Source of the DNA: Trypanosoma brucei
Taxonomy: Eukaryota
Reading direction: 5' to 3'
DNA: 64,000 nt
Assembly: GCA_000002445.1 (NCBI GenBank)
Contig: CP000071.1
Coordinates: forward strand, 1,856,001-1,920,000
Shown here: positions 13,082 to 43,562 of the stretch, piece after piece
How positions within the stretch are numbered: the first letter of the stretch is position 1
Layout of the letters: each line of letters opens with the position of its first letter
The notes under the pieces: model-generated
Seen by the model: the letters and a program-made list of their open reading frames with translations, nothing else
Told to the model about the DNA's origin: nothing
Databases searched by the model: none
Position numbers and translations under genes: made by a program

Positions 13082-14719
13082 ATGCCTGGGTGTCTTGAGG
13101 TACGTTACATTGGTGAGAGTCATGGCGTGGGTTCCTATACACTGAAACCAGCCAAAGCGGGGGATGTCCTTCTGCAGGAGTACCCCGTCGCATTTGCCAA
13201 GGCCCAAAGACAAGACGCACTGGAACCTCATCGCATCTGTGGCGGTTGCGGTATGATCCTCACCAGTCTAAAGGAGGAGTGCCGGCGCTTAGCGCTGCTC
13301 GCACTTGAGGCAACCACCGGAGGGTCATCGCAACTTGATGAGCGAGTGCACGGCAGTAGTAATGCATGTGAAGAGCAAAAATATGAACATGAAGCAGTTG
13401 GTAATCGAGCGGGCGTCACGGAATGTGCTGTCGAAGCGCCGGAGCTGGCTGTTATAGTCTCACCTGACAAGTTATATGACACGTTCAAGGACCATGAAAT
13501 GTGGGAACACTTCCAGAAGGGGGTTGAAGCCAGTGACGATATACCAGAAGGCGGAGCCGATAGCGCGGAGGTTCGGTTTTGCAGTATGGAATGCAAGGAG
13601 CACTGCCTTGGGGGCCGGGGCGGGCGTTTCGTGCTTCCACTGTTGCGGGAACCGCCATGCAACGAACTGCAGCTCACCTCTGGCGTAATGGAGGCACAAG
13701 GCATTGAAGATGTTGACAAGCTACGCACACCATCCGCTGATACGATCATGTACCAGTCAACAACCTTGACGGCTGAAGTCGCGGTGGAAGTGTGGCCAAC
13801 CAAGGCCCATGCACTCGCTACGTTGGAGTTTCTTGCAGAGAAGTATAATGCACGATTGCGGCTTGTTCTGTTCATCCTTGCTCGCTTTCTCTCGGACATT
13901 CTTTCCACGGGCTCGGTGGCAGCTAACAAACAGTTTGAAGAGCGTCTTGGTGAAAGAGTGCAAGAATTTGTACAGCATTACGACGAGGGTGCGTCGCGAG
14001 GCCTATCACCCGAGCAGCGCTCGTTTCTTCGCTTCTCGTGGAAGTGCGTTTGCCGCTGGATAACTCTTTGCTGCGTGAATGAAGGAAAGGTAGCCACTGC
14101 AGTTGCAGGTAGCGAAGATAAATTTTGTGAAGGACTATGCAGTGCAGAGAGAGTGTGCTCTAGCACAGCTGAATGGTTCCCCCTCCAACTTTACCTACGT
14201 TGCTTTTGGGTAACAGATGCTAATGCACACATGTACGTTGTAGTTTCCCCGCTCTATAGCTTGTTATCCGAGAGGTTGCCAATACTGAGTGGCATATACC
14301 GTATCCAGAGCGAAACACATTTTGGCAAAGGCAGAGGTGAAAACGTTTGTGAGAACGAAGATTCCAACGTTGGTAGCGGGCGAGAGGTGGATCGTTTAAA
14401 CCGTCAAATGAAAATACTCCAATTTCTGTTCCAAACTGTGGACCCGAACAGAGCTCACTCCAGAGGTGTGGCTCTCTATGATGCGGCGGCGAAGATAAAC
14501 CATAGTTGCGCACCATCAGTCCGATTTGTGCCGACCCATGGCGGGGTCAAGGCCGTCGTTGTGGCGTTGCGAGATATTCCCAGCGGCGAGGAGGTGAGAA
14601 CGTCGTACATTGAAGTTGGGGCGTATCCCACAAACAAGGCACGAAGGGAGTTCCTGCTTAGCAGCTACGGGTTTAACTGCGATTGCCCACTATGCGTAAC
14701 TGAATGTGAACCAACATAA
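13082..14719 (+). CDS. SET-domain protein, probably a SMYD-like lysine methyltransferase, 545 aa.
   Basis: C-terminal NHSCAPS..GEEV..SY and a post-SET CxCxxC motif. The split-SET N-terminal half is near the start. Confidence 0.8.
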   Translation: MPGCLEVRYIGESHGVGSYTLKPAKAGDVLLQEYPVAFAKAQRQDALEPHRICGGCGMILTSLKEECRRLALLALEATTGGSSQLDERVHGSSNACEEQKYEHEAVGNRAGVTECAVEAPELAVIVSPDKLYDTFKDHEMWEHFQKGVEASDDIPEGGADSAEVRFCSMECKEHCLGGRGGRFVLPLLREPPCNELQLTSGVMEAQGIEDVDKLRTPSADTIMYQSTTLTAEVAVEVWPTKAHALATLEFLAEKYNARLRLVLFILARFLSDILSTGSVAANKQFEERLGERVQEFVQHYDEGASRGLSPEQRSFLRFSWKCVCRWITLCCVNEGKVATAVAGSEDKFCEGLCSAERVCSSTAEWFPLQLYLRCFWVTDANAHMYVVVSPLYSLLSERLPILSGIYRIQSETHFGKGRGENVCENEDSNVGSGREVDRLNRQMKILQFLFQTVDPNRAHSRGVALYDAAAKINHSCAPSVRFVPTHGGVKAVVVALRDIPSGEEVRTSYIEVGAYPTNKARREFLLSSYGFNCDCPLCVTECEPT

Positions 14720-15120
14720 GGTTTATTTATTAAACGTGCGTTTTGGTTGTTTGGATGGCGTGCTTCCTGTTCGCTCTCCGGTTCTCACGCGGACATACGT
14801 GGTGGGTTTATCGCGCGGCGAGAGGCGTTATTAGTTACATTAACTTACTTGATATTAACCGTAATAGTTACGCATGGTCGGGTAGGGCTCGTTGTGCTGC
14901 TTGTGCTAACGCTGCTCTCGATCGTCATTACAAATTTCCAAGGAAAAAAAAACGCATACATACACATATCTTATCATTTAAATGTACTACGTTTACCGTT
15001 GTTGGTAGTATGAGGAGCTCTGCGCGCGCGTCCAATCCTATCGTGTGAGCAACTGCAACAAAGAAACATAAAAAGGTCACGCAAGTTGTGAAGTTAGTTT
15101 CTATTCGGAGCGTTCCGCGT

Positions 15121-16140
15121 ATGGGGTTCAAGTGTCTCCTCTCATCACGCGCCCTTCTTCAGGTTACCGGGTCTGTTGCTCATGAATTCCTGCAGGGCCT
15201 CTTCACAAATGACTTGCGGCAACTCCAGCCCGGTGGCAGCCTGTGGGGATGTTTTCTTCACCACACGGGTCGCGTTATGTGCGATGCCTATCTTTACCAA
15301 TCGACTCGCACGCCCGAAGGACAGGTAACTATTATGATTGATGTGCATTGTGGCGTTGCGGACACCCTGTTGGAGCACCTGAAAGAGTACCGGATGCGCA
15401 AGAAGTTAGAAATACGGAGTGCAGCCGAAGAGTTGGTGGTGGTGGCTGCTGCAACGATTGGAAATTCGATCTCGTCCTGCGGAGACAATGCTGGAAGTTC
15501 CCCATCATCATCGTCGGCAACATACGGTGGGGACCAGGAACTTAGTGGCCCACAAGGTGTGGATTCATTCGATACCTTGGCGGAGACATTTACTGACCCA
15601 CGCAGCTTCGCTCTCCCAGCCACTCTTCGGAAGATGATTGTTCCTCGGAAAGGTGCCCCACCCACTCTGGACTCAGAGAAATTGTACAAGAAATTTCTGT
15701 ACGCAGCCGGCGTCGGTGAAGGACCCGAAGTGTTCAGGCCTTCGAAAACACTACCCTTTGAAGCAAACACTGACTTGTTACGAGGCGTCAGTTTTCACAA
15801 AGGCTGTTATATGGGACAAGAGCTCACTCACCGTACTCATGTAATGCTTGTCACACGCAAGCGCACAGTACCACTGTTCCTTCAGGGGGAGCTGTTTGAC
15901 GGGAAGGGAGGCGAAAAAACACCGCATGTTGAGGGGACGTTGGTGATCGGCAACCAGAAGGTTGGTGAGGTTCTCACTGCATGTGGTAACGTTGGGCTCG
16001 GGTTACTGCGTTTGAACCACGTGGACATCACGACGCGAAGCTTTCCGGGGTTGTCACTGAGCGATGGCACAACTGTCGATGCGAGAATCCCTGAGTGGTG
16101 GGACGAAAAGGAGCTACGCAAAGTCCTCACCAAATCATGA
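15121..16140 (+). CDS. IBA57: IBA57/CAF17/YgfZ-family folate-binding protein (aminomethyltransferase-like Fe-S cluster assembly factor).
   Basis: N-terminal LLQVTGSVAHEFLQGLFTND matches the GcvT/YgfZ folate-binding domain. The C-terminal barrel is present. The track start GTG 15088 was moved to ATG 15121. Confidence 0.7.
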   Translation: MGFKCLLSSRALLQVTGSVAHEFLQGLFTNDLRQLQPGGSLWGCFLHHTGRVMCDAYLYQSTRTPEGQVTIMIDVHCGVADTLLEHLKEYRMRKKLEIRSAAEELVVVAAATIGNSISSCGDNAGSSPSSSSATYGGDQELSGPQGVDSFDTLAETFTDPRSFALPATLRKMIVPRKGAPPTLDSEKLYKKFLYAAGVGEGPEVFRPSKTLPFEANTDLLRGVSFHKGCYMGQELTHRTHVMLVTRKRTVPLFLQGELFDGKGGEKTPHVEGTLVIGNQKVGEVLTACGNVGLGLLRLNHVDITTRSFPGLSLSDGTTVDARIPEWWDEKELRKVLTKS

Positions 16141-17113
16141 TGGTAGCTGAAAGACAGAACGGGGTTGGAGGAGGAATGGGTGGTGTTTTTTGATCCGTTC
16201 TACCAAATTTTACTCTCCTATACACAAATATACGAACATTTGAAATGGCGCGGAGAACGGGCGCTTTCGTGCCCGAGTAGCCGTGAGAAAATTTGGTCCT
16301 GTGGTGTTTTTCCCCAGCACCACCACGCCCATTGCCTTGTTTGTTCTTACTAAATCTATCGTCAGAGTGTATTTTTTCTCAGTGTTGTTATTATTGAATG
16401 AAGTGTATGGAGATGAAGAAAGTTGACATTGTCCTTGCTGCCGACTCTTTTTTAAACATTCCGTATTCTTTTTGTTGGCGTGGTCGTGTTGTTGCAACCA
16501 CCATGCAAATACGGGCGAGGGAGTATGCATTGGAGAATACCCCCAGAATAGCGACGTGGCGGATACACATCCTAAGGCAAATACATATATATATATACTT
16601 TTTTATAACTATATTTACGTGGGTGCTTGTGTTGACGTTTGTAGCGTGAAGTTCAGTGGGAGTAAATGCGAAGGTGATGGGTAGAGCCATACTCTAAGTA
16701 CCGTGTTACTCTCACATTATTCTTTCTCTTCCTTCTGTTTTGCTAACTTGTTAAACGCATTTTAAACACGCATTTTGCTTACCGAAGGTAAGAAGAACCA
16801 AGCAAAGGTGACGGTGGGTGGCCACACAGAAGTTAAGGATTTCGCTCCGGCGCGCGCACCTCGCTGAACAAGGACGCCACACATAACGGGCTAGCCAAAA
16901 AGGGGGAAAAGTGAGGCTGACGGAGGCACGCTTCCCTTCCATCGTTCTGGTTGGTTCTCTTGGTATCGCTCACTCTACCTGCATTCTCCTTCACCCCCTT
17001 ACCAGGCCATTCTACTAGAAAACAGAAGGGACTTGGCTTACTTACTTTTCCTTTATCTAAGAGCGCCGTGAAGGAGCCAAGGGAGTAAAACGACAGTGTG
17101 GTTAAAAAAAGTG

Positions 17114-20100
17114 ATGGGTTGTGGTGCCTCCAGCAGGGTTGTGGAATCCGATGACAGGGAACGGCATAAATCACCACATTCCGCAGCCGAATGTTCGCCT
17201 AAGCTGGGCGCCGCTGAGGTTTCCCCTAACGCCAAACTCAAGGAGGTTCCGTCTGTTTCAACAAGCGTCATCGAAGGCCTGAAAGGACACCAGGGGACCT
17301 TCGTCATGTCGAAGTTCTCCAATGATAGCATGACTACAAGCGCATCGTATCTCAATCAACCAAACACCAACGAGGCTTTACCTCCCATCCAAACCGCAGA
17401 AGCTTCCTTTGCTCCGTCGGACGCCGCTGACTCCACAAGGGGAAATGGGAGATCGCCCTTCGCGTCGAATTTTACCGACAGCAATGTGGCTACCAGTTTT
17501 CTTAGAATCCCGCATTTAAACAGTGAGGTTGATTCGGACGCGAGGTTTAGCAGCAACGCATTTGAAAGCAGATGTCGTTCCGGCTCTGTGGTGAGCACTG
17601 GCGTGTGCAACGTACCCATACTTCCAACATTTTCCCACTGCAATAGCAGGGATTCACGTTTTCAAAGCCCATGTGGAGTAAATAGGTGTGACTCTTACAG
17701 TCCAACGGCTCGTCCTCATGAATGTTCACGCCGCTGTGGTTGGGGGGAGTACGAAACGCTGAGACGACTCAGTATTAATAACAGCATGGACGGCACTAAC
17801 GGCACCATAGCAGACACAGCAACTACAGCCAGCAGCGTAGAACACTCCAATAATTATGCGGGGCATCGTTATAGTTTCATAGGGACGGACTGTGGGTGTA
17901 GCAGCCTCTTTTATGACCCATGTGAGAGGTGCAGCCGTTGTATACTCGACACGGAGGCGGTGTACCGATGCGATTTATGTATGCTGATCTTCTGCACTGA
18001 CTGCCATGCGGAAATTGGGGCGGCACTGCACAGACACAAGCTAACAAGCTTCAGGCGCGCCGTAAATAGCAATGTGACTGACTCATTCCTCATCAACAAG
18101 GGGAGAAATAGGGACGGGAACAAAGTAATCAATGAATATGTGGTGATAAAGGTGCTTGGAAGGGGGTCACACGCGAAAGTTAATCTCGTGCAGCACCACC
18201 AGGATCGTACGTTTTATGCAGTGAAAATATTGCGATGTGACCGTACCAAAAAAATACATCATGGGATCGTTTCGAAGTCCAGCACCGCCAGTGATGATGA
18301 CCTTCTGCGCGAAATCGCGGTTATGAAGTTTGTATCACATCCCAATCTCATAAAACTGAAAGAGGTGATAGATGACGTTGAATCGCATAAGGTGTACGTA
18401 ATCATGGAATACTGTGCCAAGGGACCAGTTCATGTTCACGGTGAGCCGCCGCTACCCCCAGAGAAGGTGAGAAAATACGGATGTGACATACTATCCGGCC
18501 TGTTGCAACTCCACGCACAGTATCTTTATCACTGGGATATTAAACCGGCCAATTGCCTTGTTGACGACAATGACGTCGCGAAGATAGCTGACTTTGGTGC
18601 TTGCGGTAGCTCGACGCGAACCTGCAAGGTTGGCGGCACTCCCGCATACAGCTGCCCCGAACAGTTTGCTGGAACGCATATTGGAGGCCATGTTGCAGAT
18701 AGTTGGGCTTTTGCCATGACGTTATATCAAATGTCACATGGCACCCTCGCGTATAGCACTACCTCCATTTCCAGCTTGAGGGACAGTATGCTAGATCCAA
18801 CACCGCTACCCATTCAAGAAGGAGTAGAGCCCGAGTTGAAGGACTTATTGCGCCGAATGTTAAATAAGGATATGTCGCAGCGAATGATGCTACACGATGC
18901 TATGAAGCACTCGTACTTCAGTGGATATGTGACGCAAAGTTATACAACAGTCGAGCCTTCCAATGAGTCAGCGGGGTGCATCACGGAAGACTTGTACGCC
19001 CGTGCACAGCAAGCAGTGCTTCGAGGGAAACGGGTCGGTGATTTCTTTCATGGCGTGCAGTTTGTGCGCAGAATACGCCGAATGATGGTTCGTCATATCA
19101 ACACGCACGACGTGGACGATGAAGATGATTTTTTCCCTGAACTCCCAGAGGCATCCTCATTGGAGAGTACCCAACGTTTAGTGACCAACGAAGCTGACAT
19201 ACACGAAGTGCATAAGATAGTCAGTAGTTTCGTCGGGGATGCTGTGAGAGGAGCGCTTCGAATTGACGGAATCCTCATGACTACACTTCATTCCTTCGTA
19301 GCGGAGGCGGCACCGTTGGTTTCGAAGCTGTGTTGCAGCAATAACAAGCTCACGTGTGTGGGAACAGTTGATTTCTCGAAGTTTCAACACCTTCGCGTGC
19401 TGCAGATTTGTGAAAACTCGCTCAGGCAATTTCCACTGGATGTTCTCCACGCCCCTAGGTTACAGTTCCTGGATTTATCTCACAATCATATCAAAGACAT
19501 ACCGCCCGCGCTCACCTGCGCCCGGGAACTTCAAACATTGTGCATGAACCACAACCAAGTGGCATACGTGGGTTGTAACGAGTGCGGTGCATCCGTCCTC
19601 TCAGGAGAATCTATGCAAAAGGTGGTGCTGACTGCCAACCCATTGCGCCATCTACCAGCTGAGATCACATCATGTTCCAAGTTGGAGTTAATTTTAGACG
19701 ATGCCCCATCGCTGTTGGAAGAGTGGTATGCATCAATTAATCAGTCGACAAGTGTGAGTATTACGTGGAACGACATTTATCCTTGTCGAGTATACCCCGA
19801 GGTGCCACTCTTCGTTGCTTCTAAAAGCATTAAACTATATAACTTGACTATACTAGAGGCACTCGGCACGCGTAATGTTGTGTTGACACAATTCGAGTCG
19901 TGGCTCCCCACAGGTGAAGTGAATTCTGCTGCAATGGAAGAGCACGTTCGACGCCGGCAGAAGGAGTCAGTGAGGGTTAATGGAAATGATAGCGAATGTG
20001 AAATTCGCTCGCCAGTCGTTAGAAAGACGGCAATGAATGTCGGGGATTGTCTTCCCATACCGAATATTCTCTCTAAATCAGTTTGTCGGTTCCTCCATAG

Positions 20101-20353
20101 TTACTTTATATTGGAAGAGAAAACCTCCTATACAGTATCTGCCTACGGAGCTCTCAAGAATTATCTCACAACATGTCTCGGTAGAAATGAAAGTGTTGTT
20201 GTATTTCTCGATGAGCGGAGGGATTCACAAAATACCCGTGATACAATTGTTGCAGTTTTGTGTGAAGTACTGATGGCTGCGAAAGGGGGTAAGAGAACAC
20301 TGAGTGGTTGCATCAGCGATGTAGTTGATGCGACGCGGGGGCTCTACGCGTGA
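17114..20353 (+). CDS. Protein kinase with N-terminal MGCG dual-acylation motif, a B-box-type zinc finger and C-terminal leucine-rich repeats, 1079 aa.
   Basis: Kinase motifs: GRGSHAKV, AVKIL, HWDIKPANCLVD, DFG and GTPAYSCPE. Cys/His cluster CSRC-x9-CDLC-x4-CTDC-H..H. LRR block LRVLQICENSL...LQFLDLSHNHIKDIP. MGCGAS at the N-terminus. The track start GTG 17096 was moved to ATG 17114. Confidence 0.85.
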   Translation: MGCGASSRVVESDDRERHKSPHSAAECSPKLGAAEVSPNAKLKEVPSVSTSVIEGLKGHQGTFVMSKFSNDSMTTSASYLNQPNTNEALPPIQTAEASFAPSDAADSTRGNGRSPFASNFTDSNVATSFLRIPHLNSEVDSDARFSSNAFESRCRSGSVVSTGVCNVPILPTFSHCNSRDSRFQSPCGVNRCDSYSPTARPHECSRRCGWGEYETLRRLSINNSMDGTNGTIADTATTASSVEHSNNYAGHRYSFIGTDCGCSSLFYDPCERCSRCILDTEAVYRCDLCMLIFCTDCHAEIGAALHRHKLTSFRRAVNSNVTDSFLINKGRNRDGNKVINEYVVIKVLGRGSHAKVNLVQHHQDRTFYAVKILRCDRTKKIHHGIVSKSSTASDDDLLREIAVMKFVSHPNLIKLKEVIDDVESHKVYVIMEYCAKGPVHVHGEPPLPPEKVRKYGCDILSGLLQLHAQYLYHWDIKPANCLVDDNDVAKIADFGACGSSTRTCKVGGTPAYSCPEQFAGTHIGGHVADSWAFAMTLYQMSHGTLAYSTTSISSLRDSMLDPTPLPIQEGVEPELKDLLRRMLNKDMSQRMMLHDAMKHSYFSGYVTQSYTTVEPSNESAGCITEDLYARAQQAVLRGKRVGDFFHGVQFVRRIRRMMVRHINTHDVDDEDDFFPELPEASSLESTQRLVTNEADIHEVHKIVSSFVGDAVRGALRIDGILMTTLHSFVAEAAPLVSKLCCSNNKLTCVGTVDFSKFQHLRVLQICENSLRQFPLDVLHAPRLQFLDLSHNHIKDIPPALTCARELQTLCMNHNQVAYVGCNECGASVLSGESMQKVVLTANPLRHLPAEITSCSKLELILDDAPSLLEEWYASINQSTSVSITWNDIYPCRVYPEVPLFVASKSIKLYNLTILEALGTRNVVLTQFESWLPTGEVNSAAMEEHVRRRQKESVRVNGNDSECEIRSPVVRKTAMNVGDCLPIPNILSKSVCRFLHSYFILEEKTSYTVSAYGALKNYLTTCLGRNESVVVFLDERRDSQNTRDTIVAVLCEVLMAAKGGKRTLSGCISDVVDATRGLYA

Positions 20354-23300
20354 TGGTCCGTATTCGTTTCGATAATATGCGGTGCCAAAGAGGGTAATGT
20401 AAAGAGAGAGAGGAGGGGAAACAAAAAAGCAACAAAGAGAAAAAATAATAATGATAATAACAATAAAAATGCGCGGTTTATTCAAGTGCAGTTTGCAAAA
20501 CGGTTGCGGTCGTATTGCTTTTCAGTTACCGTGGATGTGGAAGGGTTCCGCATCCGCATTCCCACTTTGTATGTGTATTTCTCAATGTGTATTTATGTGT
20601 TCATGTGTACGTTTATGTCTGTAGTCGCAGTTGATATGCAAGTTGGGAGCCATTTGGTTCTTGTGACTGCCGTTGGTCACCTTTATTTGTTTGTTTTTGC
20701 GTAATGTGCCTGTTGTTTTTTGTTTTGTTTTTGTTTTTGTTTTGTATCTTTTCCCTTCCACCTCCACCTGTCGCACGCCTCTCTTTTATTTATTTACCTA
20801 TTTTTGTTTGTATCGAGTGATTTGTGACGAAACGCTGTCCTTTATCGTGAGGGGTTCTTGTTTTGTTTTTTTTTTGCATTTACTATGGAGAAGTGAATCA
20901 AAAGGAAAATAAGAGCAAAGGTAAAGAAAAGTGTATCGAGGAACAAATACTGCATGTACACCTGTTGTATTTGTGTTTATTTTACTTATTATTTTTTTTT
21001 GGCATTTTATCATTTTAGTGCGGAGGGCACGGTGCGGTGTGGTGTGATGTGTCCCACGAGCCTGGGTAACATATATATATTTATATATATTATTGTCATT
21101 AAAAATACAACTATATGTTACACATGTATTCCAGAAAGAAATTGAAATGAAAGGAAAAAGAGGGGAAGAATAAGTGCATGTATTGCACAATACCACATCC
21201 ATTTATTTGTTTGGTTTATTTGCCTTGAGCGTCACGGAGAATAAATGTTTAAAGTGTTAGTGTGTGTGTGGGGGGGGGGGTATTGTTATTATTGTGTGAA
21301 GAGGACATATTTGTGTAATGACGTCTAGTGAGATGATGTAAGTCCTTTTATGTATTTAATTTAATTTAATTTATCTTCCCTTGAACCACGATGTGTTTCT
21401 CTCTGCTCTTCACTTCACGTTTACAATTGGCGAGTGCTTTCCTTTTTCTTTGCTCGTATGCGCTACTGTGTGCGTGTGCGTAATATGTATGTCCCCCGTT
21501 TTTTTCTTTCGTTAGTTTTATTTATTTGTTTTTCCCTTTGAGCGTTTACGAAAACAAAAGAAAATAAGTAAGTAATCGTGTCGGCGCGCACTTGGTTTCG
21601 ATCGGACGATGTTAAAAGAAAGTGAAAGGATTTTTTATTTGTTGCTCACGTCTGTGTTCGTGTGAATTCTAGACAATTTTTTTTTTATTTTTTTGCTTGA
21701 ATGAAAGAGAGAATAGTAGAGCGCGACAGGAACGAATCGAGATAAAGGGTTGTTGTTGTTGTTTTTTTCCAAGTGTGAGTTAATAAAATACAAACACGAC
21801 TCGTTACTTTATTATAATTTCCCTTCCCTCTTCATCCCTTCCTCCTCAGTGTTGATACACGTGTGTTTTATCATATTTTTTTTATTAATATTATATTTAT
21901 TTACTTCGATTACTTTAATTTTTTAAAGTCACGCATGCGTGACGCGGTGCACTACGACTTATTTGCATAATATATATATTATGTGTTATATCTTGATATG
22001 AATATTTATGTGCGCGTACGTTGAATTATTATTATTATACGAGTGTGACGAACATATAACGGAGTGAAGTGAAACAAGCCCGCATGTGTCAACCCAAATT
22101 GCAGCACTTTAACACGACTAATATAATGATAATAATAAATATTATTATCATTATTGTTATTAACGCCGGGGCTAACTGTTGCTGCAGCCCCGGATCCTAT
22201 CTTATCGTCGTATATGTTTATCTTTTTACTTTTCTTTTTTTTAAAAAAAAAGATAATAAAGCAGTATTTATATATAAGTTCTTCCCTCCAGATTATTTTT
22301 TGTTACCTTCTTTTTAATTATTATTATTATTATATATATTATCTCCTCTTTTCCCTTTCATTCAATCTCATTATCAACATCATTGCTGTTAACAACATTT
22401 CTTTTATGTGTTTATGTTTACTTCTTACGTATTCGTTTCGTGCTCACTTGAGTTTATGGGTGAATTAACCAGACTGGTGTTTTGTATTTGTTTATGTAAG
22501 TGTGTATAATTTAAAGAAGAAAATGGTTGAAATATGAATAAAGATATAAATATTTGAATGAATAAATAAATAAATATATGCGTGTGTATGTGTATGTGTA
22601 TGTGTCATCCATTACTTTTTGGTCTCCGCGTGGTGGTTGAGGAATGAGAGAAAAATTAAAAAATTAATAGAGAGAAAAGTGTACAGGTATCTGAGAGAAT
22701 GCATTGATTTGATCCTATGAGGTGCATTTTGTTATATAAACTCAATTGCGTATGTATGGGAACGGGAGGGAGTGAAAAGCCTGATTTCTTTCAATAAATA
22801 AATATATAATATGATATGAAAGTTATTTGTTTCTTTTTTTTTCTATTATTATTATTTTGCAATACTTACATCGTTTCGTTATATGTGTTTGATCCCTTCA
22901 CTATCCCTCTCATTCAAACTCCCACAACTTTTCTTCGGGCCATCAACCCTCCACTTAAATATGTCACTTCTTCGTTTTATTTTTGTTTTGCTCATAACCT
23001 GCTGCTGTTTTGGGGTTTTTATTCATTTTATCTGCTCAATTTATTCATATTCGCTTCTCTTCTATTCTATTTTTGTTTCTTTCTTTTCTTTTTTTTTTGT
23101 CGTTTGACATTTCTTTTTCGTTCTTATTGCTGTTAGGTACCCGCAATTGTTTTAGTTTGTATTTCACTCACCTCGCCAGAGCGGCATCTTCTTATTTTGT
23201 TTTATTAGTTCGCTCCCCCTCATTGTCTCTCCTTGGCTTTTCAGCTACTCCAAGAGACAAACAAGAAACAAAAAAAAAAGAACAGAACAGAACAGAAAAA

Positions 23301-24337
23301 AATATATTATTAAAAACAAAAACAAAAGCAAAAAAAGAAAGTAAAAGGGTCACTTTATCTTTTTGTAAACTTCTTCACTTTGATTTCCACTTGTAATTAA
23401 TTGACCTTTCTGTTTCATAGTTCCTGCTCCCTTGTACCTGTTTATTATTATCATTATTACTAGTAGTGTTTGTATTGTTGCGGCTTATTTGCCTTCACGC
23501 TAGTAACTTCGAACCGTTGACGCACGGATCTCATTGATTGATTGGGGAGATATATATATATATATATATATTCTTCCCTATCAAAAATTAAAAAAGAAGG
23601 AAGAGAAAAGAGTATATATTGTTATATAAAGGATTTTAACAACTAAAAGTAAACAAAAGGAGGAAGGGAACCCCGGCGTTTGTTATCAACATACGACGAC
23701 ACGTGAATTCAAGCAAACACCACATATATATTCCCTCCGTTTTTTTGTAAGTTTTTTTTTTTGCCTTTTGGTTTTGGTTTTTTTCTTAAAACAAATCAGA
23801 AGAAAAGGCAAGGAGGCTAATTGAAAAGAAAATACCAAATCGGAATAAATAGGTAAAGGGAGGGTCAAAAAAAAAAAAAAGAACAGGAGAACAAAAAAAA
23901 GGGAAATACCCTTAGTTTTTGGTGAAGTGAGAGAGCCCTGTAGTTTCATTTTTTTTTTTCAAATATATATCACGAAGCGGTACAGCGAAAGGGAAAGGAG
24001 AAGAAGAAGAAAGACTTTATCGAGTTTTTTTTTTCGTTTGCTTTATATCACTTTTGTCGTTGTTTTGTCCTGAGGTGCTTGGACGCGTAGTGCGAAAGAA
24101 ATTAATTTCAGAAGGGAAACCGAATCGACAGGTAGCAGATAAGCCCATTTGCTGTTGTTTTACATCTTTTTAATTCACTCCGTTACTTGTAGAAGCAGAG
24201 GGTCGTGGTTGACTTGTTTGTGGTTTTTTTTGTTTGTCTGTTTTCTTGTTATTGTGTGTGAGTGCATTTGTGCGTTGTAAACTGTTGGCGGGTGAACGAA
24301 AAAATAAATCAATAAATAAAGGAACGGATAGGGGTAG

Positions 24338-25957
24338 ATGAACTTCGAGTTGAGCATCAACACCCCTACGCGTCCCACGCGTTGGGTTTCCAACGAAACG
24401 CCATCACCTCCGGTGAACATTTCCTTCTCGACTCCGGACCGTTTCATTTCCGATCGGAATTCACAGGATAATTCCATATCACATTTCTTCCTCACAACAA
24501 AAGAGAATGTTGTGCCACTGCGTACCGCGTCAGGTCAGAGGGCCCATTCCTCAGTGATGGTGACGCCGCCAAATCGTGGCACGACGGGTGGTGGTGGTGG
24601 TGGGGCCTCTGCTCCACCCGTCTTTGGTGGTGGCGGCGGCAGTAGTGGTGGTGGAAGCCCCAGCAAATCTGCCAAACGCGCCGCTCAATGTAGTTACACA
24701 TGTGCACCAGAGCTCGGTACGGAACCATACACAAATAAACTTGCCCGTACACTTTTCCCGGGCACCCAGTCTACTGTTTTGGGGATTAACAGTCAGGTGC
24801 AACCGCGGCCCGCACCAGAAACAGAGCAGGAGCGGTACAGCAACTCGCTGGGTGTGGTATTCGAGGAAAATCGGGCAAGGAATTTTATGTCAAGAACGTT
24901 CCGGGTTATATCGCGAGCTCCAGAGCGTATTCTCGACGCGGTGGATATGATAGACGACTTTTACCTTCAGCTCATGGATTGGTCCGCAAAGGACGTCCTC
25001 GCTGTGGGGTTGCAAGGGTCTGTCTACCTGTGGTATGAGAAAACATCTAACATTGCGCAGCTCCCGTGCCAACGACCAGCCAACGGGATCATTTGCGGTG
25101 TTAGTTGGAGTGAGGATGGAAATCACTTGGCCCTGGGCGCTGACGACGGCTCAGTGGAGATTTGGGATGTAGAGGCGGAGCGCATTACACGCCGATTGCA
25201 TCACCACACGGATCGTGTGGGGGCTCTCTCATGGAATGGAAGCGTCCTTTCAAGCGGCAGCAAGGACACAACCATTCGTATTAATGATCTACGGGACCCT
25301 CTAGGCACATGGACGCTGCAGGCTCACCGGCAAAGTGTGTGTGGTTTGCGCTGGTCACCTGATGGATTGCGCCTGGCAAGTGGTGGAAACGACAATCAAC
25401 TTCTGCTCTGGGACATGCGCACTTTATCCATGAACTCAACACCCTCCATGTTACTCAATAAGCACACAGCAGCGGTAAAAGCAATTGCGTGGAATCCAGT
25501 GCAACACAATCTTCTGGTTAGTGGCGGCGGTTCTGATGACAAGATGTTGCGCTTCTGGAACACGTCGACCGGTGAGTGCATAAGCAACTTTAACGCAGAA
25601 AGCCAGGTGTGTGGCGTACTGTGGAACCATGGCGGTACAGAACTTGTAAGTTCCCATGGCTATTCCCACAATCGCCTTACAATTTGGAAGTACCCAACGA
25701 TGCGGCGCGTTGCGGACTTGGCAGGGCATACGTCACGTGTTCTGCACATGTGCATGTCAACTGATGGGGAGGTGGTGGTATCCGCAGCAGCTGATGAGAC
25801 AATTAGGTTTTGGCGTTGCTTCTCCCCATGCGAACAAACAAATTACTGCCGAACCCGACACGAGAGCCATCGTGACCCGAATTGCGTACCACCCGGACTG
25901 GGGGTAAATGCGCTTCAGTTGGACACAAGCCTGCGTGATGAGCTCCCCTTGCGCTGA
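24338..25957 (+). CDS. CDC20: CDC20/Fizzy-family APC/C co-activator with a WD40 propeller.
   Basis: N-terminal C-box DRFISDR. Seven WD40 repeats with an LWD/GG..D pattern. Low-complexity G-rich linker. Confidence 0.9.
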   Translation: MNFELSINTPTRPTRWVSNETPSPPVNISFSTPDRFISDRNSQDNSISHFFLTTKENVVPLRTASGQRAHSSVMVTPPNRGTTGGGGGGASAPPVFGGGGGSSGGGSPSKSAKRAAQCSYTCAPELGTEPYTNKLARTLFPGTQSTVLGINSQVQPRPAPETEQERYSNSLGVVFEENRARNFMSRTFRVISRAPERILDAVDMIDDFYLQLMDWSAKDVLAVGLQGSVYLWYEKTSNIAQLPCQRPANGIICGVSWSEDGNHLALGADDGSVEIWDVEAERITRRLHHHTDRVGALSWNGSVLSSGSKDTTIRINDLRDPLGTWTLQAHRQSVCGLRWSPDGLRLASGGNDNQLLLWDMRTLSMNSTPSMLLNKHTAAVKAIAWNPVQHNLLVSGGGSDDKMLRFWNTSTGECISNFNAESQVCGVLWNHGGTELVSSHGYSHNRLTIWKYPTMRRVADLAGHTSRVLHMCMSTDGEVVVSAAADETIRFWRCFSPCEQTNYCRTRHESHRDPNCVPPGLGVNALQLDTSLRDELPLR

Positions 25958-30095: not shown

Positions 30096-31214
30096 ATGAA
30101 CAGGGGGTCGGTGGCCGGCGCTATTGCTCTCAAACGGCGATGTCATCATGTAATTGACGCATTGGGTGCCAGGACTCCGCCAGAAGCGTTTCTTTTCCGC
30201 GGGAATGCTTACATGGCTTTGGGCCAGCCGTACTTTGCCTTAGCGGACTACAACACGGCGGCTCAAGTGTTGCAGCTATCGGGCCAGCATCAGCAGCGCT
30301 GTCAGGAAGCACTGCTGCGCTTCCCGCCGCACCAAGTAGGTGTCTACCCGGCCGACAACTCACACCTACACATTCATGTGCATCCATACCTCAACGAGGA
30401 ATGCGAAGTGAAACAAATTGATGCCGTGATCGGTCGTGGAATTGTGGCGAGGGAAAACCTCAAGAAGGGCACAGTTGTAATCCAGCGGGCCGAACCTTGG
30501 ATGCGGTACCCGGTTGCTGACGGCCTCTGCGCACTGTGCACCAAACCTCTGCCAGAGAGGTTCTTTACATGCACAAACCCCCGTTGCCACGAGGAATACT
30601 GCAGCCGCGATTGTAGAACAATAGCTCTTTCTCGTTATCACTCTCGTACTTGTCGCATAGAGGGTTTGCAAGCTATCGAACTTGACTTATTCTCACAAAT
30701 GAAATCATCTGAAGCAGCTACAGACAAAAACTCAGCGGCCGCCCAACTGCTGATGCTGCGTGTTTTAGCTGCATCGCTGCAGCAGCAAATTGTTCCTTCA
30801 GCGCTGAGTGAAGTGCGTATTCTAAGCGGTAGGTTGCTCTTCTCCCCAGCAGCCCTCGCAGGAAAGTTTCTGGAAATCTACGAACGTTTCACCAGGGCAT
30901 GTTCCACCTCCACCTCCATTCCCTACGAGGAAATGATTGGAGTTTTGGCGCGTGTGACAACCAACTGTTTCCACCGGGAGAATTGTGTAGAGCTGAGCCT
31001 TCCCCGCTCTCTCCTGAACCATTCGTGTGACGCAAACGTAGCGGAGGATGCTGAAACGGGGGAGATGAGAACGACGCAGGATGTCGCACGGGGTACAGAA
31101 CTCACCATTAATTACTATCCACAACTGAAGGAACTGAATTATAAAAGCCGCTCGAGAGAGCTCGAGCGGCGTGGCTTCGTTTGCTGTTGTTCCCGATGCA
31201 GGAGGGAGAGGTAA
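30096..31214 (+). CDS. SET-domain protein with a MYND-type zinc finger and N-terminal TPR-like region (SMYD-like), 372 aa.
   Basis: MYND finger CALCTKPL...CTNPRCHEEYCSRDCRTIALSRYHSRTC. SET motifs NHSCDANV and ELTINY. C-terminal CCCSRC post-SET. Confidence 0.8.
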   Translation: MNRGSVAGAIALKRRCHHVIDALGARTPPEAFLFRGNAYMALGQPYFALADYNTAAQVLQLSGQHQQRCQEALLRFPPHQVGVYPADNSHLHIHVHPYLNEECEVKQIDAVIGRGIVARENLKKGTVVIQRAEPWMRYPVADGLCALCTKPLPERFFTCTNPRCHEEYCSRDCRTIALSRYHSRTCRIEGLQAIELDLFSQMKSSEAATDKNSAAAQLLMLRVLAASLQQQIVPSALSEVRILSGRLLFSPAALAGKFLEIYERFTRACSTSTSIPYEEMIGVLARVTTNCFHRENCVELSLPRSLLNHSCDANVAEDAETGEMRTTQDVARGTELTINYYPQLKELNYKSRSRELERRGFVCCCSRCRRER

Positions 31215-39329: not shown

Positions 39330-42300
39330 AACGAATAACAAAAATCAAAACAAAAGGATTGCTAATTGACATCTTTTGGAGAGTCTGGGGTGGGGGCTTC
39401 TCGTCCCATCTGCTGTATTCCGTTTAACTGCGGAGCTACGACAAAAAATTATAGATGATAGGGATGGATTGAAAAAGGAAAATCCAAAACACCCACCAGT
39501 AACAGTACAGTCGAGGCGCTTGCGGTGGTGGCAATAATGGCTGTGGCATTGTGGGGAAACCGTTGCAAACGCCTGAGGAGAGCTTCAAATTAAACATCGA
39601 CCACGCCAATCCAATATCACTTCCTGTCCTGACGATTTTTGTTCATTCCCCCTGTTTCTAGTTACACCTTCAAACGGATACACACAACAAACTTACATTT
39701 ACTTGATCACATCAGGAAGGACATATATTGCTCCTCCCCCCTTTTTTACAATCTAGTGACTCCTTCGCTTTTATTCCCTGTACGAGACGTTGCAGATTCT
39801 TTATGCGTAAAATCGTTCTTCTCTTCGTATGTGAAAACAAGTTTATTTCATTCATCCATCGTTATTCTCATTAGTCGATTGAGGTCCCTGCAGGTTATCC
39901 TTGTTATCATTTTGTTATTGTTTACATCTACTGCGACATCATGATTGCTTGAAGAAGTCACTCGCATTGGTGAGCTACGGTGGCATTATATTCAGGAAGG
40001 ATATATTATTCGGAGTGGTTACTAAGGAAAGCCTCTGCAGTTTTTAACTTCTAAGCCTTAGATGAAAATAGACACGTTATGAAAACATATGTGTATTTCT
40101 GCATGGCTTCGTGCGTACATCACAGTACCAAAATGTATTTTTCCTTTTATTGATTCTCCCCCCAGCCGGTAGTTCCCCTCCAGAAAGCATCCGATGCCAC
40201 ATTGACAAACGTGCTATATTATCCCCAAACACGAAGACACGTAAGTAGCATTATCTCGGACTGGTGGGATACTGTTCGGGCTGCGAAACTAATTCTCGTG
40301 ATCTGTTTCCTATCGAAATGAGAATAATACTCACGCAACGGCAATCACAAGCAATCCGCTTCACAGTTTCTGTGGAACGAAATGAATTTTCCCCCTTCCT
40401 ATTTCTTTATATGCTACGCTAATGTAATGTTTGAATGAGCGGCCCATACTCACAGTACCCATCACACTAATTCCCCATACACTCACTAAGCAATTCACAT
40501 AATTATACACTATCGCCCACTGGTTGACACCAAACCGCTGAACCGTATTGAGATGTGTTGACGCGGTGGCCTAAGCATACGGAAGCACTCCCCTTTTTCT
40601 ACAGATCCTCAAGGTCAATCCTTGCAGAAACTGCTCGATCTTGGTGTTATCGGAATTTTAGAGAGATAAATTGTGATTACTCTATGGTAACATATCCGTT
40701 GTGCTTAATTTTTTTTCGGAATGTTTTCTACCCTCACTAATTCTTCCTGGCCGGTTTTCCACCACTGGAGAATCAATGTATTATATTTCTTTATTTTTCT
40801 TTTTGTAGGTGTACGTGGGCCAACTATGCTTGACCACAGGGAAAATGGCATGGCTAAGGAAAAGGACTAAAAACCTGTGCTTACATCTTGGGTCTGCTTT
40901 CTATTATTCAGATTCTTTGGAACACTGTGAACGGGAATGTGTTTTATAGTTATTTTGCTTTGTTTTTTTTATATTTAAACTTTTTTGTAATGGGCTGAAT
41001 ATTTTTTTGTGCTGTCGAGGATTGTTATTTGCTGGTGGTAGTGGCTCATTTTATTTTATTTTGGCGTGTGTAGAATGAGAATGTTAGGGTTGCAGGTGTG
41101 TCGCTGCGACGCCCGAAATAATTTTGTGGAAAATTGCTTTACCACTCGAGGTGTCATAATTGAAGAAATGATTCTCTTTTTCTACACTTAAAAACTTCCC
41201 GCTTTTGTTTTTTGTCGTTGTTTATTTATTTGTTTATTTAATTTGTCCCACCCCTTCTGGAGCCGATGAGGTAATTTCTGCATCTGTTTTTTTTTTTTGC
41301 AGATCGCACATCATTATTCCAATGAGTCAAATGTACTTTCCGTCCCGCATTCTCCATTTTCTATGCTTCCCATGTATTCAAAACTATGCCATCATTTATT
41401 TCAGACAGCACGTGTGTCTTTAACCTTAACAGTAGTCATTTGATGGTCATGTTTTTTAGCATATCTGTGAGTATTTAATGCACATTTCCTCTCACTTTTC
41501 CAATGCATTTTTAATTGCAGCTAAACATACGTGACAACATGTGGTAATGTTAAAGGGATAAAGAGGGAAAACAATTAAAAGAAAAGAAAAGAAAGAAACG
41601 AGGGAAAGAGGAAGTAAGAAAAATAAGCATGTGAAACAGAAGGGTGAAAAAATAAAATAAAAATAAATAAATGACAATAAGAAGCACCATAAAGGGGGCG
41701 CAAGCAAGAGAAGGGAAATGGATCCGCGAAAGGTTTTCACGCGTACCCAGTGAGAGTAAAACAAGAAAAATAACAACGGTACAAAAAATAATAAAAAGAA
41801 GAAGGCATACGCACCTCAACGGGGGAAAAAAGAATGGAAGGAAGAAAGGGAAAACTCCATCAACCCCTCGTTTCGTTTTCACGTATTCTTCTTCAAAGCG
41901 TATAAACAAATAAATTAGAAGTTATATATATATAAATATATATTATTTATTAATAGAAATTCAGAAAATCACACTTCATCTGTTCGACTTCTTTTAATTA
42001 AACGCACCGTACGAATGGCAGCCCGGCGGGTCATTTCATTTCCTCTTCAGAACCAACTTTGGTGTGTGGGATGACGGTTCCGGCAACAGTAACAAAAAAA
42101 AAAACAAAATTTTTTTAGCGGCGAATACAACGAAGCCGCACCACCATCATACGTTTCTTTTTCTTTTTTCCCCTCTCATATGGACACGCGCACACATGTG
42201 CATTTTTTAAATTTTTCTTTCGTTTTAAGGGACGGGGTCTCACATCACACGGTGGCTTCCGAATGTAAATGAGAGAAAACGAGAAAAATTGCAGAGGGGA

Positions 42301-43433: not shown

Positions 43434-43517
43434 TCCTAAACTGTTAAATAATGCGAGGCCGCCCTTCACTCTACTTCCGCTCTGGTCACCACCAATGGTA
43501 GCAATAATTTTTTTTTT

Positions 43518-43520
<3 letters not shown>

Positions 43521-43559
<39 letters not shown>
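43521..43559. repeat. (AT)19 microsatellite preceded by T10.
   Basis: The longest TA dinucleotide run in the window. Confidence 0.9.

Positions 43560-43562
<3 letters not shown>

What the first reader, a model, noticed from the sequence alone, without database searches (positions are those of the whole stretch)
17114..20353. Unusual architecture: N-acylated (MGCGAS) B-box zinc finger, non-RD protein kinase and LRR
The N-terminus MGCGAS fits a myristoylation (Gly2) plus palmitoylation (Cys3) dual-acylation signal, which in trypanosomes often targets flagellar or pellicular membranes. A B-box1-like finger (CSRC-x9-CDLC-x4-CTDC-H-x8-H) precedes the kinase domain. The catalytic loop is HWD rather than HRD, and the APE motif is SCPE, so regulation or activity may be atypical. 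C-terminal leucine-rich repeats follow. An LRR-kinase with a B-box is an uncommon combination.
Basis: partly seen in the sequence, partly recalled or inferred. Interest (0 to 1): 0.5.

Follow-up and report, generated by a model that had tools for sequence, protein, structure and literature searches.

The report
Membrane-anchored CaMKK-like kinase with dead phosphatase
This is the already annotated Trypanosoma brucei kinase Tb927.8.6490; its zinc finger is a ZZ type rather than a B-box, its kinase looks active, and after the leucine-rich repeats it has an unnoticed C-terminal domain shaped like a phosphatase but lacking the catalytic cysteine.

Summary
The ORF at 17114-20353 (+) is real. It is 100% identical to T. 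b. brucei TREU927 XP_847479.1, inferred to be Tb927.8.6490, kinome class Other/CAMKK. MGCGAS, HWD, SCPE and the LRRs are all present.

- The conserved zinc ligands are C270/C273/C286/C289/C294/C297/H306/H308, not CSRC. The finger is ZZ-type, not a B-box. Its best fold matches are ZZ domains, and orthologues have a second, upstream finger that matches the dystrobrevin ZZ (E=2.6e-7). T. brucei has lost that upstream finger.
- All catalytic kinase residues are intact. SCPE is typical of the family. HWD occurs only in T. brucei and T. congolense, together with loss of an acidic activation-loop residue that most HRD orthologues keep.

The kinase-LRR pairing has been in the literature since 2005. 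The domain order mirrors the trypanosomatid "kinatase" (pseudokinase-LRR-active DSP) with live and dead domains swapped.

Verdict: moderate interest; a new variant of a known kind.

The parts
16936..17061 (+). Two polypyrimidine tracts, each ending in AG; probable trans-splice acceptor region and start of the 5' UTR
   Evidence: Read directly from the sequence. No ATG lies between them and 17114.
17114..20353 (+). Complete CDS, 1079 aa plus stop; identical to T. b. brucei TREU927 XP_847479.1 (inferred Tb927.8.6490)
   Evidence: 0 differences to P0053. It is the only chromosome-8 Other/CAMKK in Jones 2014 Table S1.
17114..17134 (+). MGCGASS: predicted N-myristoylation (Gly2) plus S-palmitoylation (Cys3) signal
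   Evidence: Matches PS00008 and is conserved in orthologues. Predictors are positive for the L. donovani orthologue.
17135..17665 (+). Ser-rich, poorly conserved linker of variable length (aa 8-184), probably disordered
   Evidence: Alignment A1 is mostly gaps and unconserved here. Ser makes up 16.5% of aa 8-255.
17666..17818 (+). Degenerate remnant of the ancestral first ZZ finger (aa 185-235); most zinc ligands lost
   Evidence: Orthologues have ECxxC-x7-CxxC-x5-CxxC...HDPTH here. That profile hits the dystrobrevin ZZ at E=2.6e-7. The window protein has no CxxC pairs and no His pair in this region.
17909..18052 (+). ZZ-type (ZZ/UBR-like) binuclear zinc finger, aa 266-313; ligands C270, C273, C286, C289, C294, C297, H306, H308; invariant acidic D279 and E281
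   Evidence: invariant ligands; UBR box E=1.4e-5; ZZ folds rank top; related to finger 1.
18137..18919 (+). CaMKK-like Ser/Thr protein kinase domain, aa 342-602; catalytic residues intact
   Evidence: Pfam E=1e-44. Best PDB match is CaMKK2 at E=5e-38, against MARK2 at 9e-29 and LKB1 at 5e-28. Invariant K371, E400, H473, D475, K477, N480, D493-G495, E516, D529, R590.
18530..18538 (+). HWD catalytic-loop motif; W474 (TGG) replaces the Arg of HRD
   Evidence: Shared with T. congolense. All 22 other orthologues have HRD.
18632..18634 (+). G507, the activation-loop residue just before the GT of GTPAY; it is D/E in 20 of 22 HRD orthologues
18983..19093 (+). Conserved basic segment after the kinase domain (aa 624-660: ELY..RGK..FHGV..RRIRR); candidate regulatory or autoinhibitory element
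   Evidence: Near-invariant L627, Y628, R637, G638, F645, H646, G647, R652, R656. The function is inferred only from its position, which matches CaMKK's regulatory segment.
19298..19708 (+). Leucine-rich repeats, about 5-6 units beginning at aa 736, 760, 783, 806, 834 and 857
   Evidence: Pfam LRR_8 and LRR_4 above gathering threshold. Repeat cores listed.
19709..20350 (+). Dual-specificity-phosphatase-fold domain without a catalytic motif (pseudophosphatase), aa 866-1079. The P-loop-equivalent stretch, aa 1028-1045 (VVVFLDERRDSQNTRDTI), contains no Cys.
20990..22301 (+). Four plus-strand UAUUUUUU motifs (20990, 21686, 21874, 22294) in the AT-rich ~4 kb stretch downstream; probable 3' UTR elements bound by RBP10
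   Evidence: 27 motifs in the window against 8 expected. RBP10 is reported to bind and repress the Tb927.8.6490 mRNA.

Best explanation
The gene encodes the trypanosomatid-wide, membrane-tethered member of the CaMKK-like kinase family (T. brucei Tb927.8.6490).

Domain order: dual-acylation signal, disordered Ser-rich linker, decayed ZZ finger 1, intact ZZ-type finger 2, catalytically competent CaMKK-like kinase, conserved basic tail, about 5-6 LRRs, then a DSP-fold pseudophosphatase.

Proposed mechanism:
- Shown: the architecture, the conservation, the intact kinase catalytic residues, and the absence of the phosphatase CX5R motif.
- Inferred: myristate on Gly2 and palmitate on Cys3 hold the protein on the inner face of the pellicular or flagellar membrane.
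- Inferred: the kinase domain is the only catalytic module. By analogy with CaMKK/LKB1, it phosphorylates downstream kinases or other membrane-proximal substrates.
- Inferred: the ZZ finger, the LRRs and the dead phosphatase domain are recruitment modules. The ZZ finger may read a peptide terminus. The pseudophosphatase may dock phosphoproteins without hydrolysing them, as STYX does.
- Inferred: in African salivarian trypanosomes the HRD arginine became Trp and its likely acidic partner in the activation loop became Gly. This would be a paired change that keeps the kinase independent of activation-loop phosphorylation rather than killing it.
- From the literature: expression is procyclic-biased through RBP10 repression of the mRNA.
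For: - Identity and annotation.
- Kinase: Pfam E=1e-44 and best PDB match CaMKK2 at E=5e-38. All catalytic residues are invariant in 19-24 orthologues.
- Acylation motif: conservation and predictor calls.
- LRR.
- No Cys in the P-loop-equivalent stretch. Where orthologues keep a Cys, the spacing to the Arg is C-x10/11-R and the loop is acidic.
- HWD plus Gly co-occurrence.
- Procyclic-specific, RBP10-bound mRNA, with UA(U)6 motifs downstream.
- No loss of fitness in bloodstream-form RNAi screens.
- TrypTag terms 'cytoplasm' and 'flagellum'.
Against: - There is no experimental evidence for acylation. The Leishmania orthologue was not detected in the myristoylome.
- TrypTag lists 'cytoplasm' as well as 'flagellum', and the tagged terminus is unknown.
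- The DSP assignment rests on a predicted structure only. hhalign against a canonical DSP found nothing, and so did profile searches.
- By sequence, finger 2 scores better against the UBR box and Pfam C1_2 than against ZZ.
- HWD and Gly arose together in a single lineage, so the co-variation is one event, and the structural contact between the two positions is not verified.
- Substrates and CaM regulation are pure analogy.
Confidence: 0.7

Rival explanations
1. One reading: an acylated B-box-kinase-LRR protein whose kinase may be a pseudokinase or atypically regulated because of HWD and SCPE.
Against: No B-box model reaches Pfam's threshold. ZZ domains outrank B-boxes in fold, and for finger 1 also in sequence. 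PML and TIF1-beta B-boxes score E=0.6 and 3.3 against the finger profile. SCPE is the family norm, and every catalytic residue is invariant. The model leaves out the C-terminal domain.
Confidence: 0.08
2. HWD marks loss of kinase activity in African trypanosomes, so the protein is a pseudokinase scaffold there while remaining active in other trypanosomatids.
For: Only T. brucei and T. congolense have HWD. The same lineage also lost ZZ finger 1 (at least in T. brucei) and the acidic activation-loop residue, which could indicate relaxed constraint. RNAi gives no fitness loss in bloodstream forms.
Against: The catalytic Lys, the alphaC Glu, D475, N480, DFG and the PE motif are all retained in both species. 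The HRD Arg is regulatory rather than catalytic (established knowledge of RD versus non-RD kinases). The kinase domain is about as conserved between T. brucei and T. congolense as the rest of the protein.
Confidence: 0.12
3. The C-terminal domain is not related to phosphatases. It is a generic alpha/beta (Rossmann-like) domain or an LRR cap that resembles the DSP fold by convergence or through model bias.
Confidence: 0.12
4. The C-terminal domain is an active, non-canonical phosphatase, making the protein a bifunctional kinase-phosphatase (a true kinatase).
For: DSP fold. Some orthologues keep a Cys at the end of the strand before the loop: T. cruzi FLCFDEKK, P0061 VLCMNKEE, P0062 MLCIDES. A conserved Arg follows.
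Against: The window protein has no Cys in aa 1028-1045. Leishmania has Val or Ser at that position. Where a Cys exists, the spacing is C-x10/11-R, not C-x5-R, and the loop is acidic, which is unfavourable for phosphate binding. There is no DSPc Pfam hit, whereas the real kinatase has one.
Confidence: 0.04

Closest known systems
Mammalian CaMKK1/CaMKK2 (and the wider LKB1/CaMKK group of upstream kinases)
   Same: The kinase domain is most similar to CaMKK2 (E=5e-38). There is an insert between beta3 and alphaC at the position of CaMKK's RP insert. A conserved basic segment follows the kinase domain where CaMKK has its autoinhibitory/CaM-binding segment. Published T. brucei kinomes class it as Other/CAMKK.
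   Different: The insert is short and not Arg/Pro-rich. HWD replaces HRD, and SCPE replaces APE. CaM binding is untested. CaMKKs have no acylation signal, ZZ finger, LRR or phosphatase-fold domain.
Trypanosomatid 'kinatase' (LmjF.34.2190 / LINF_340027100; Brenchley et al. 2007)
   Same: Same organisms and the same order of modules: CaMKK-like kinase fold, LRRs, then a C-terminal DSP fold. For both, the nearest non-kinetoplastid LRR matches are bacterial LRR/small-GTPase proteins.
   Different: Kinatase kinase domains lack the catalytic Asp and other essential residues, and its DSP is canonical and detected by Pfam. Here the kinase is intact and the DSP is dead and invisible to Pfam. It is a different gene (Leishmania chr 34 versus chr 24; T. 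brucei chr 8). Common ancestry was not tested.
STYX-type pseudophosphatases
   Different: STYX keeps a recognisable DSP sequence with a single Cys-to-Gly change. Here the whole P-loop is remodelled (longer and acidic) and no sequence similarity remains.
ZZ-type zinc fingers (dystrobrevin/dystrophin, p62, Nbr1, HERC2, KCMF1, CBP/p300, BIG, PRT1) and the related UBR box
   Same: C4-C2H2 cross-brace binding two zinc ions. Beta-hairpin, helix, beta topology. Top fold matches. Finger 1 of the orthologues is a ZZ by sequence. Finger 2 shares the CGRV..E..Y.C..C...C..C...H.H pattern with the UBR1/2 boxes (E=1e-5).
   Different: The first inter-knuckle spacer is long (12 residues). No Pfam ZZ hit passes threshold for the window protein. 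Only the first ~45 residues of the ~70-residue UBR box are matched. A ZZ finger next to a protein kinase domain is not an arrangement I know from elsewhere (own knowledge, not tested).
B-box zinc fingers (TRIM/BBX proteins)
   Same: The same superfold and the same number of ligands.
   Different: Below threshold in every sequence test and outranked by ZZ domains in fold. There is no RING or coiled-coil context.
LRRK/ROCO kinases
   Same: LRRs and a kinase in one polypeptide.
   Different: No Roc or COR domains were detected. The order is kinase then LRR, and the kinase belongs to the CaMKK group, not TKL.
SH4-type dually acylated proteins (Lck/Fyn; T. brucei calflagins; Leishmania SMP-1/HASPB). 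Comparison from own knowledge.
   Same: MGC N-terminus with a small residue at position 6.
   Different: Acylation and membrane or flagellar targeting have not been demonstrated for this protein.

Membership tests
Eukaryotic protein kinase, catalytically competent | Gly-rich loop, VAIK Lys, alphaC Glu, HxD Asp, catalytic-loop Asn, DFG, APE Glu | tested here: met
   GRGSHA 349-354, K371, E400, D475, N480, D493-F-G495 and E516 are all invariant in the orthologue alignment. Pfam Pkinase matches its full length 1-263.
RD kinases | Arg immediately before the catalytic Asp (HRD) | tested here: not met
   HWD in the window protein and in T. congolense; HRD in all 22 other orthologues.
CaMKK family | Kinase domain closest to CaMKK rather than to other CAMK-like or other kinases | tested here: met
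   CaMKK2 E=5e-38 and CaMKK1 E=5e-33, against MARK2 at 9e-29 and LKB1 at 5e-28. Listed as Other/CAMKK.
CaMKK family | Arg/Pro-rich insert between subdomains II and III | tested here: inconclusive
   An insert of ~15-20 aa lies at the same position (aa 376-394, alignment), but it is Ser/Lys/His-rich, not RP-rich.
CaMKK family | Autoinhibitory and calmodulin-binding segment C-terminal to the kinase domain | not testable with these tools
   A conserved basic segment at aa 624-660 is in the right place. CaM binding needs an experiment.
B-box zinc finger (PF00643) | Match to the B-box profile at or above Pfam's threshold | tested here: not met
   No hit for the window protein at E<=1. For the finger alone, only ANCHR-like_BBOX at E=0.28. 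The best orthologue finger scores zf-B_box E=1.4e-3, below the gathering score of 24.1.
B-box zinc finger (PF00643) | B-box domains are the nearest structural neighbours | tested here: not met
ZZ-type zinc finger (PF00569) | CxxC...CxxC...CxxC...H..H cross-brace ligand set, conserved | tested here: met
   C270, C273, C286, C289, C294, C297, H306 and H308 are invariant.
ZZ-type zinc finger (PF00569) | Sequence-profile match to ZZ | tested here: inconclusive
   Finger 2: Pfam ZZ hits 5 of 13 members, best E=2.8e-3 and sub-threshold; UBR and C1_2 score better. Finger 1 of the orthologues: dystrobrevin ZZ E=2.6e-7, and Pfam ZZ 23.2 bits against a gathering score of 21.4 in P0010. Finger 1 and finger 2 profiles are related, E=7e-5.
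ZZ-type zinc finger (PF00569) | ZZ domains are the nearest structural neighbours | tested here: met
Leucine-rich repeat | Tandem LxxLxLxxNxL units recognised by LRR profiles | tested here: met
   LRR_8 E=1e-12 and LRR_4 E=9e-12, both above gathering score. Repeat cores at aa 736, 760, 783, 806 and 834.
Cys-based dual-specificity phosphatase (PTP superfamily) | PTP/DSP alpha/beta fold | tested here: met
Cys-based dual-specificity phosphatase (PTP superfamily) | HCX5R catalytic signature (nucleophilic Cys and P-loop Arg) | tested here: not met
   aa 1028-1045, VVVFLDERRDSQNTRDTI, has no Cys. Orthologues that keep a Cys have C-x10/11-R and an acidic loop.
Cys-based dual-specificity phosphatase (PTP superfamily) | Sequence-profile match (Pfam DSPc or PDB DSP sequences) | tested here: not met
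   No Pfam hit. No DSP in the PDB profile search. Only orthologues among 1.84e9 proteins.
Kinatase (Brenchley 2007) | Pseudokinase domain(s) lacking the catalytic Asp and other essential residues | tested here: not met
   There is a single kinase domain and all catalytic residues are present. Definition taken.
Kinatase (Brenchley 2007) | LRRs between the kinase-like and phosphatase domains | tested here: met
Kinatase (Brenchley 2007) | Active, Pfam-detectable DSP catalytic domain | tested here: not met
   compare.
Kinatase (Brenchley 2007) | Common ancestry with LmjF.34.2190 and its orthologues | not tested
   No kinatase sequence could be retrieved with the tools. The LRR plus C-terminal profile search was saturated by generic LRR proteins, and AFDB50 was unavailable.
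N-myristoylated / palmitoylated (SH4-like) proteins | Met-Gly start, permissive residues at positions 3-7 (PS00008), Cys3 | tested here: met
   MGCGASS matches. 13 of 22 orthologue models match the pattern and 12 have MGC. Predictors score the L. donovani orthologue 'high / reliable'.
N-myristoylated / palmitoylated (SH4-like) proteins | Acyl groups demonstrated on the protein | not testable with these tools
   Not detected in the L. donovani myristoylome; all experimental columns are NaN.
ROCO/LRRK kinases | Roc GTPase and COR domains | tested here: not met
   No such Pfam domains in the protein.

The most novel reading that the evidence does not exclude
This protein and the trypanosomatid kinatase are paralogues descended from one bifunctional kinase-LRR-DSP ancestor, and they underwent reciprocal inactivation. 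Here the kinase is alive and the phosphatase dead. In the kinatase the kinase is dead and the phosphatase alive. The two would form an opposing writer/eraser pair. Each would use its dead domain to dock the same substrates, and this copy would additionally be targeted to membranes by acylation and by ZZ fingers.
Probability: 0.2. Interest if true: 0.65.

Novelty: new variant of a known kind. Interest (0 to 1): 0.4.

Why it matters
Trypanosomatids have few recognisable signalling receptors or upstream kinases. The kinases that activate their AMPK/CAMK-like regulators of differentiation are largely unknown.

A conserved, probably membrane-anchored CaMKK-like kinase that carries three recruitment modules is a plausible entry point into such a cascade. 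It is developmentally regulated: procyclic-specific, RBP10-repressed, and among the transcripts that change as monomorphism evolves.

Recognising the C-terminal domain as a dead phosphatase links this kinase to the kinatase/LRR-DSP group. It suggests a testable idea about reciprocal pseudo-enzyme evolution.

The salivarian-specific HRD-to-HWD change, together with loss of the acidic loop residue, is a natural experiment in how RD-pocket regulation can be dispensed with.

None of this overturns current understanding. It refines the annotation of a known gene.

Tried and rejected
- Pfam on the whole protein and on the isolated finger found no B-box.
- A profile of the C-terminal domain against PDB sequences gave only chance hits: Cas-lambda and COMMD3, E>0.05.
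- An exhaustive HMM search of 1.84e9 proteins with the C-terminal profile found only orthologues, so there is no sequence bridge to real DSPs.
- The LRR plus C-terminal profile in the word-indexed database was saturated by generic LRR proteins. It missed even known orthologues and no DSPc-bearing protein appeared, so it is uninformative about kinatase paralogy.
- The finger profile in the same database gave 127 candidates, none significant, so it is uninformative.
- The T. congolense contig, wanted to recover the N-terminus of the truncated model P0002, is not on record.
- The Leishmania kinome-deletion paper and its supplements have no entry under LmxM.24.1800, and there are no papers under the Leishmania gene IDs I guessed.
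- 'Kinatase' membership was considered and rejected because two defining features fail.
- LRRK/ROCO was considered and rejected because there is no Roc-COR.
- A UBR box proper was considered and rejected because only the first ~45 of ~70 residues match, and the second half (third zinc site) is absent.


Full report
**1. The observation**

The window holds an uninterrupted ORF on the + strand from the ATG at 17114 to the stop at 20351-20353 (1079 aa). The slightly longer ORF that the ORF listing reports from a GTG at 17096 is an artefact of the bacterial code. The same artefact appears in the Logan gene calls (P0001, 1084 aa, starting MWLKKV).

ATG 17114 is the first in-frame ATG. It is preceded by two polypyrimidine tracts ending in AG, with no intervening ATG, as expected for a trypanosome trans-splice acceptor.

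The translated protein is 100% identical to T. b. brucei TREU927 XP_847479.1 and differs at two residues from the T. equiperdum protein. The TREU927 gene lies on a 2.48 Mb chromosome and the T. congolense orthologue is TCIL3000_8_6320. The only chromosome-8 member of 'Other/CAMKK' in the published kinome is Tb927.8.6490. I therefore infer that this is Tb927.8.6490.

MGCGAS (aa 1-6), HWD (473-475, Trp codon TGG at 18533-18535), SCPE (513-516), a full-length Pfam kinase domain (342-602, E=1e-44) and LRR_8/LRR_4 hits above threshold (742-815) are all present.

**2. Conservation**

Orthologues with the same layout occur in T. congolense, T. cruzi, T. rangeli, T. conorhini, T. grayi, T. theileri, T. 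melophagium, Strigomonas, Angomonas, Leptomonas, Porcisia and Leishmania. More distant kinetoplastid-like sequences from environmental assemblies also have it (P0014, P0059, P0061, P0062).

**3. N-terminus**

MGC followed by a small residue at position 6 is kept in 12 of 22 orthologue models. MG plus the PS00008 pattern is kept in 13. The exceptions are mostly truncated or doubtful gene models.

In the L. donovani myristoylome study the orthologue LdBPK_241800.1 (MGCSTS...) is flagged '+ / high / reliable' by the two predictors used. All of its experimental columns are empty. Dual acylation is therefore well predicted but not demonstrated.

TrypTag source data list Tb927.8.6490 under both 'cytoplasm' and 'flagellum'. 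The tagged terminus is not given there, and an N-terminal tag would destroy the signal.

**4. The zinc finger**

The invariant ligands are C270, C273, C286, C289, C294, C297, H306 and H308. The conserved pattern is CxxC-x12-CxxC-x4-CxxC-x8-HxH.

No B-box model reaches significance. The window protein gives only ANCHR-like_BBOX at E=0.28 and C1_4 at E=0.15.

Scanning all 13 orthologue fingers gives weak hits to many cross-brace families: C1_2 (best 1e-7), zf-UBR (1.6e-5), FYVE, ANCHR-like_BBOX (3e-4), zf-B_box (1.4e-3) and ZZ (2.8e-3).

A profile of the finger against PDB sequences matches the first ~45 residues of the UBR1/UBR2 UBR boxes (E=1.4e-5 to 1e-3). PML and TIF1-beta B-boxes score E=0.6 and 3.3.

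The orthologues carry a second, upstream finger (ECxxC-x7-CxxC-x5-CxxC...HDPTH). Its profile hits the dystrobrevin ZZ domain at E=2.6e-7, followed by the Nbr1, BIG, HERC2, KCMF1 and p62 ZZ domains. One member passes Pfam's ZZ threshold. The two finger profiles are related to each other (hhalign E=7e-5).

I conclude that the ancestral protein had tandem ZZ-type fingers and that the surviving finger of the window protein is the divergent second one. In T. brucei the first finger has decayed: aa 185-235 has no CxxC pairs and no His pair.

D279 and E281 are invariant and lie between the first two knuckles. In ZZ and UBR domains, acidic residues bind the free amino terminus of a ligand peptide (established knowledge). 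A similar role here is only a suggestion.

**5. The kinase**

The best solved relatives are CaMKK2 (E=5e-38) and CaMKK1 (5e-33), well ahead of MARK, LKB1 and AMPK. This agrees with the published classification.

K371, E400, H473, D475, K477, N480, D493-F-G495, T509, P515-E516, D529 and R590 are invariant. There is therefore no sequence reason to call it a pseudokinase. [ST]CPE is the family norm.

HWD is different. All 22 non-salivarian orthologues have HRD, and only the T. brucei group and T. congolense have HWD. The change is real, fixed and at least as old as the brucei-congolense split. It is one nucleotide from an Arg codon.

In 20 of 22 HRD orthologues the residue immediately before the activation-loop GT is Asp or Glu. 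The other two have a loop one residue shorter, with an Asp three positions earlier. Both HWD species have Gly at this position.

My inference runs as follows. In the ancestral protein a built-in acidic residue satisfied the RD arginine, so no activating phosphorylation was needed. In Salivaria both partners were replaced together. This is a single evolutionary event and the contact is unverified, so it is a hypothesis, not a result.

A conserved basic segment (aa 624-660; near-invariant L627, Y628, R637, G638, F645-H-G647, R652, R656) follows the kinase domain, where CaMKKs carry their autoinhibitory/CaM-binding segment. Its function is untested.

**6. LRRs**

Five to six repeats (cores at aa 736, 760, 783, 806, 834, then a capping strand at 857) are supported by Pfam.

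The combination of LRR with a CAMKK-family kinase, one per TriTryp species, was already tabulated by Parsons et al. 2005. It is therefore not new.

**7. The overlooked C-terminal domain**

After the LRRs comes a ~215-aa region that is conserved across the family. Invariant residues include W871, W885, D887, P890, G934, S996, F998 and R1042. It has no Pfam hit, no PDB sequence hit and no relatives outside the orthologue set among 1.84 billion representative proteins.

The strand-loop-helix element that would be the P-loop (aa 1028-1045, VVVFLDERRDSQNTRDTI) has no cysteine.

Some orthologues keep a Cys at the end of the strand: the T. cruzi clade, P0014, P0061 and P0062. In these the spacing to the conserved Arg is C-x10/11-R, not C-x5-R, and the loop is acidic.

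The domain is best described as a highly diverged pseudophosphatase.

**8. Relation to the kinatase**

Brenchley et al. 2007 defined trypanosomatid 'kinatases' as pseudokinase(s) plus LRRs plus an active DSP. They noted that the kinase-like domains are closest to CaMKKs and that the LRRs resemble those of bacterial LRR/small-GTPase proteins.

The L. infantum kinatase (LINF_340027100 = LmjF.34.2190) has Pfam Pkinase, LRR_8 and DSPc.

The present protein has the same module order with the opposite pattern of live and dead domains. Its best non-kinetoplastid LRR match is also a bacterial LRR-Roc/Ras protein (P0065).

It fails two defining features of the kinatase, so it is not a member. Whether the two are paralogues could not be tested.

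**9. Expression and phenotype from the literature**

Tb927.8.6490 mRNA is described as procyclic-specific and as bound and repressed by RBP10. It is among 23 transcripts commonly changed as monomorphism develops.

Consistent with this, the ~4 kb AT-rich region downstream of the stop codon carries four plus-strand UAUUUUUU motifs.

RNAi gave no loss of fitness in bloodstream forms. That is expected for a gene expressed in procyclic forms.

**10. Verdict**

Its interpretation is partly right on acylation, the non-RD kinase and the LRRs. It is wrong on the finger family, it overstates the oddity of SCPE and of the LRR-kinase pairing, and it misses the phosphatase-fold domain.

The gene is known and annotated. 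What this analysis adds is:
- the ZZ assignment and the loss of ZZ1 in T. brucei;
- the lineage-specific HWD/Gly pair;
- the cryptic pseudophosphatase, which gives a kinatase-like architecture with inverted activity.

This is a moderately interesting refinement and a new variant of a known kind. It is not a categorically new system.

Noticed in passing
window 35988-36674: Cluster of five tRNA genes in a near-palindromic arrangement: Ile(aat)+, Leu(taa)-, Gln(ctg)-, Gln(ctg)+, Ile(aat)+. It lies just after the last + strand gene, at the convergent strand-switch region.
   Followed up: partly
window 35224-46207: Convergent strand switch. Large ORFs are on the + strand up to ~35.2 kb and on the - strand from 46.2 kb. 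The 40-46 kb stretch is AT-rich (GC 0.34-0.37) with strongly negative GC skew and has no large ORF.
   Followed up: no
window 20354-24337: About 4 kb of AT-rich sequence (GC 0.31-0.37) lies between the kinase stop codon and the next gene (CDC20/Fizzy-like, 24338-25957). It is probably an unusually long 3' UTR and carries 4 plus-strand UAUUUUUU (RBP10-type) motifs. The motif is over-represented window-wide: 27 found against 8 expected.
   Followed up: partly
window 17666-17818 (aa 185-235): Relic of a first ZZ finger. Orthologues have a canonical ZZ here (dystrobrevin ZZ E=2.6e-7). T. brucei keeps only scattered Cys residues and lacks the CxxC pairs and the His pair. The state in T. congolense is unknown because its gene model is N-terminally truncated.
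   Followed up: partly
window 18530-18538 and 18632-18634: HRD-to-HWD co-occurs with D/E-to-G at the residue before the activation-loop GT. Both changes are found only in T. brucei and T. congolense. This is a single lineage event, and the structural contact is not verified.
   Followed up: partly
window 17096-17113: Logan-derived protein models of this gene (P0001 and P0054-P0057, 1084 aa) start at an upstream GTG (MWLKKV...). This is an artefact of prokaryote-style gene calling on a eukaryotic assembly.
   Followed up: yes
window 13082-16140 and 30096-31214: The neighbours are ordinary housekeeping genes: two SET-domain proteins (13082-14719, 30096-31214), a CAF17/IBA57-like folate-binding protein (15088-16140), an SDR (4404-5900) and, on the - strand, a succinate dehydrogenase/fumarate reductase flavoprotein (46208-48037).
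   Followed up: partly
P0065 (hit): The best non-kinetoplastid match to the LRR region is a bacterial LRR protein carrying Roc/Arf/Ras GTPase domains (E=6e-21). Brenchley et al. reported the same kind of match for the kinatase and LRR-DSP LRRs.
   Followed up: no
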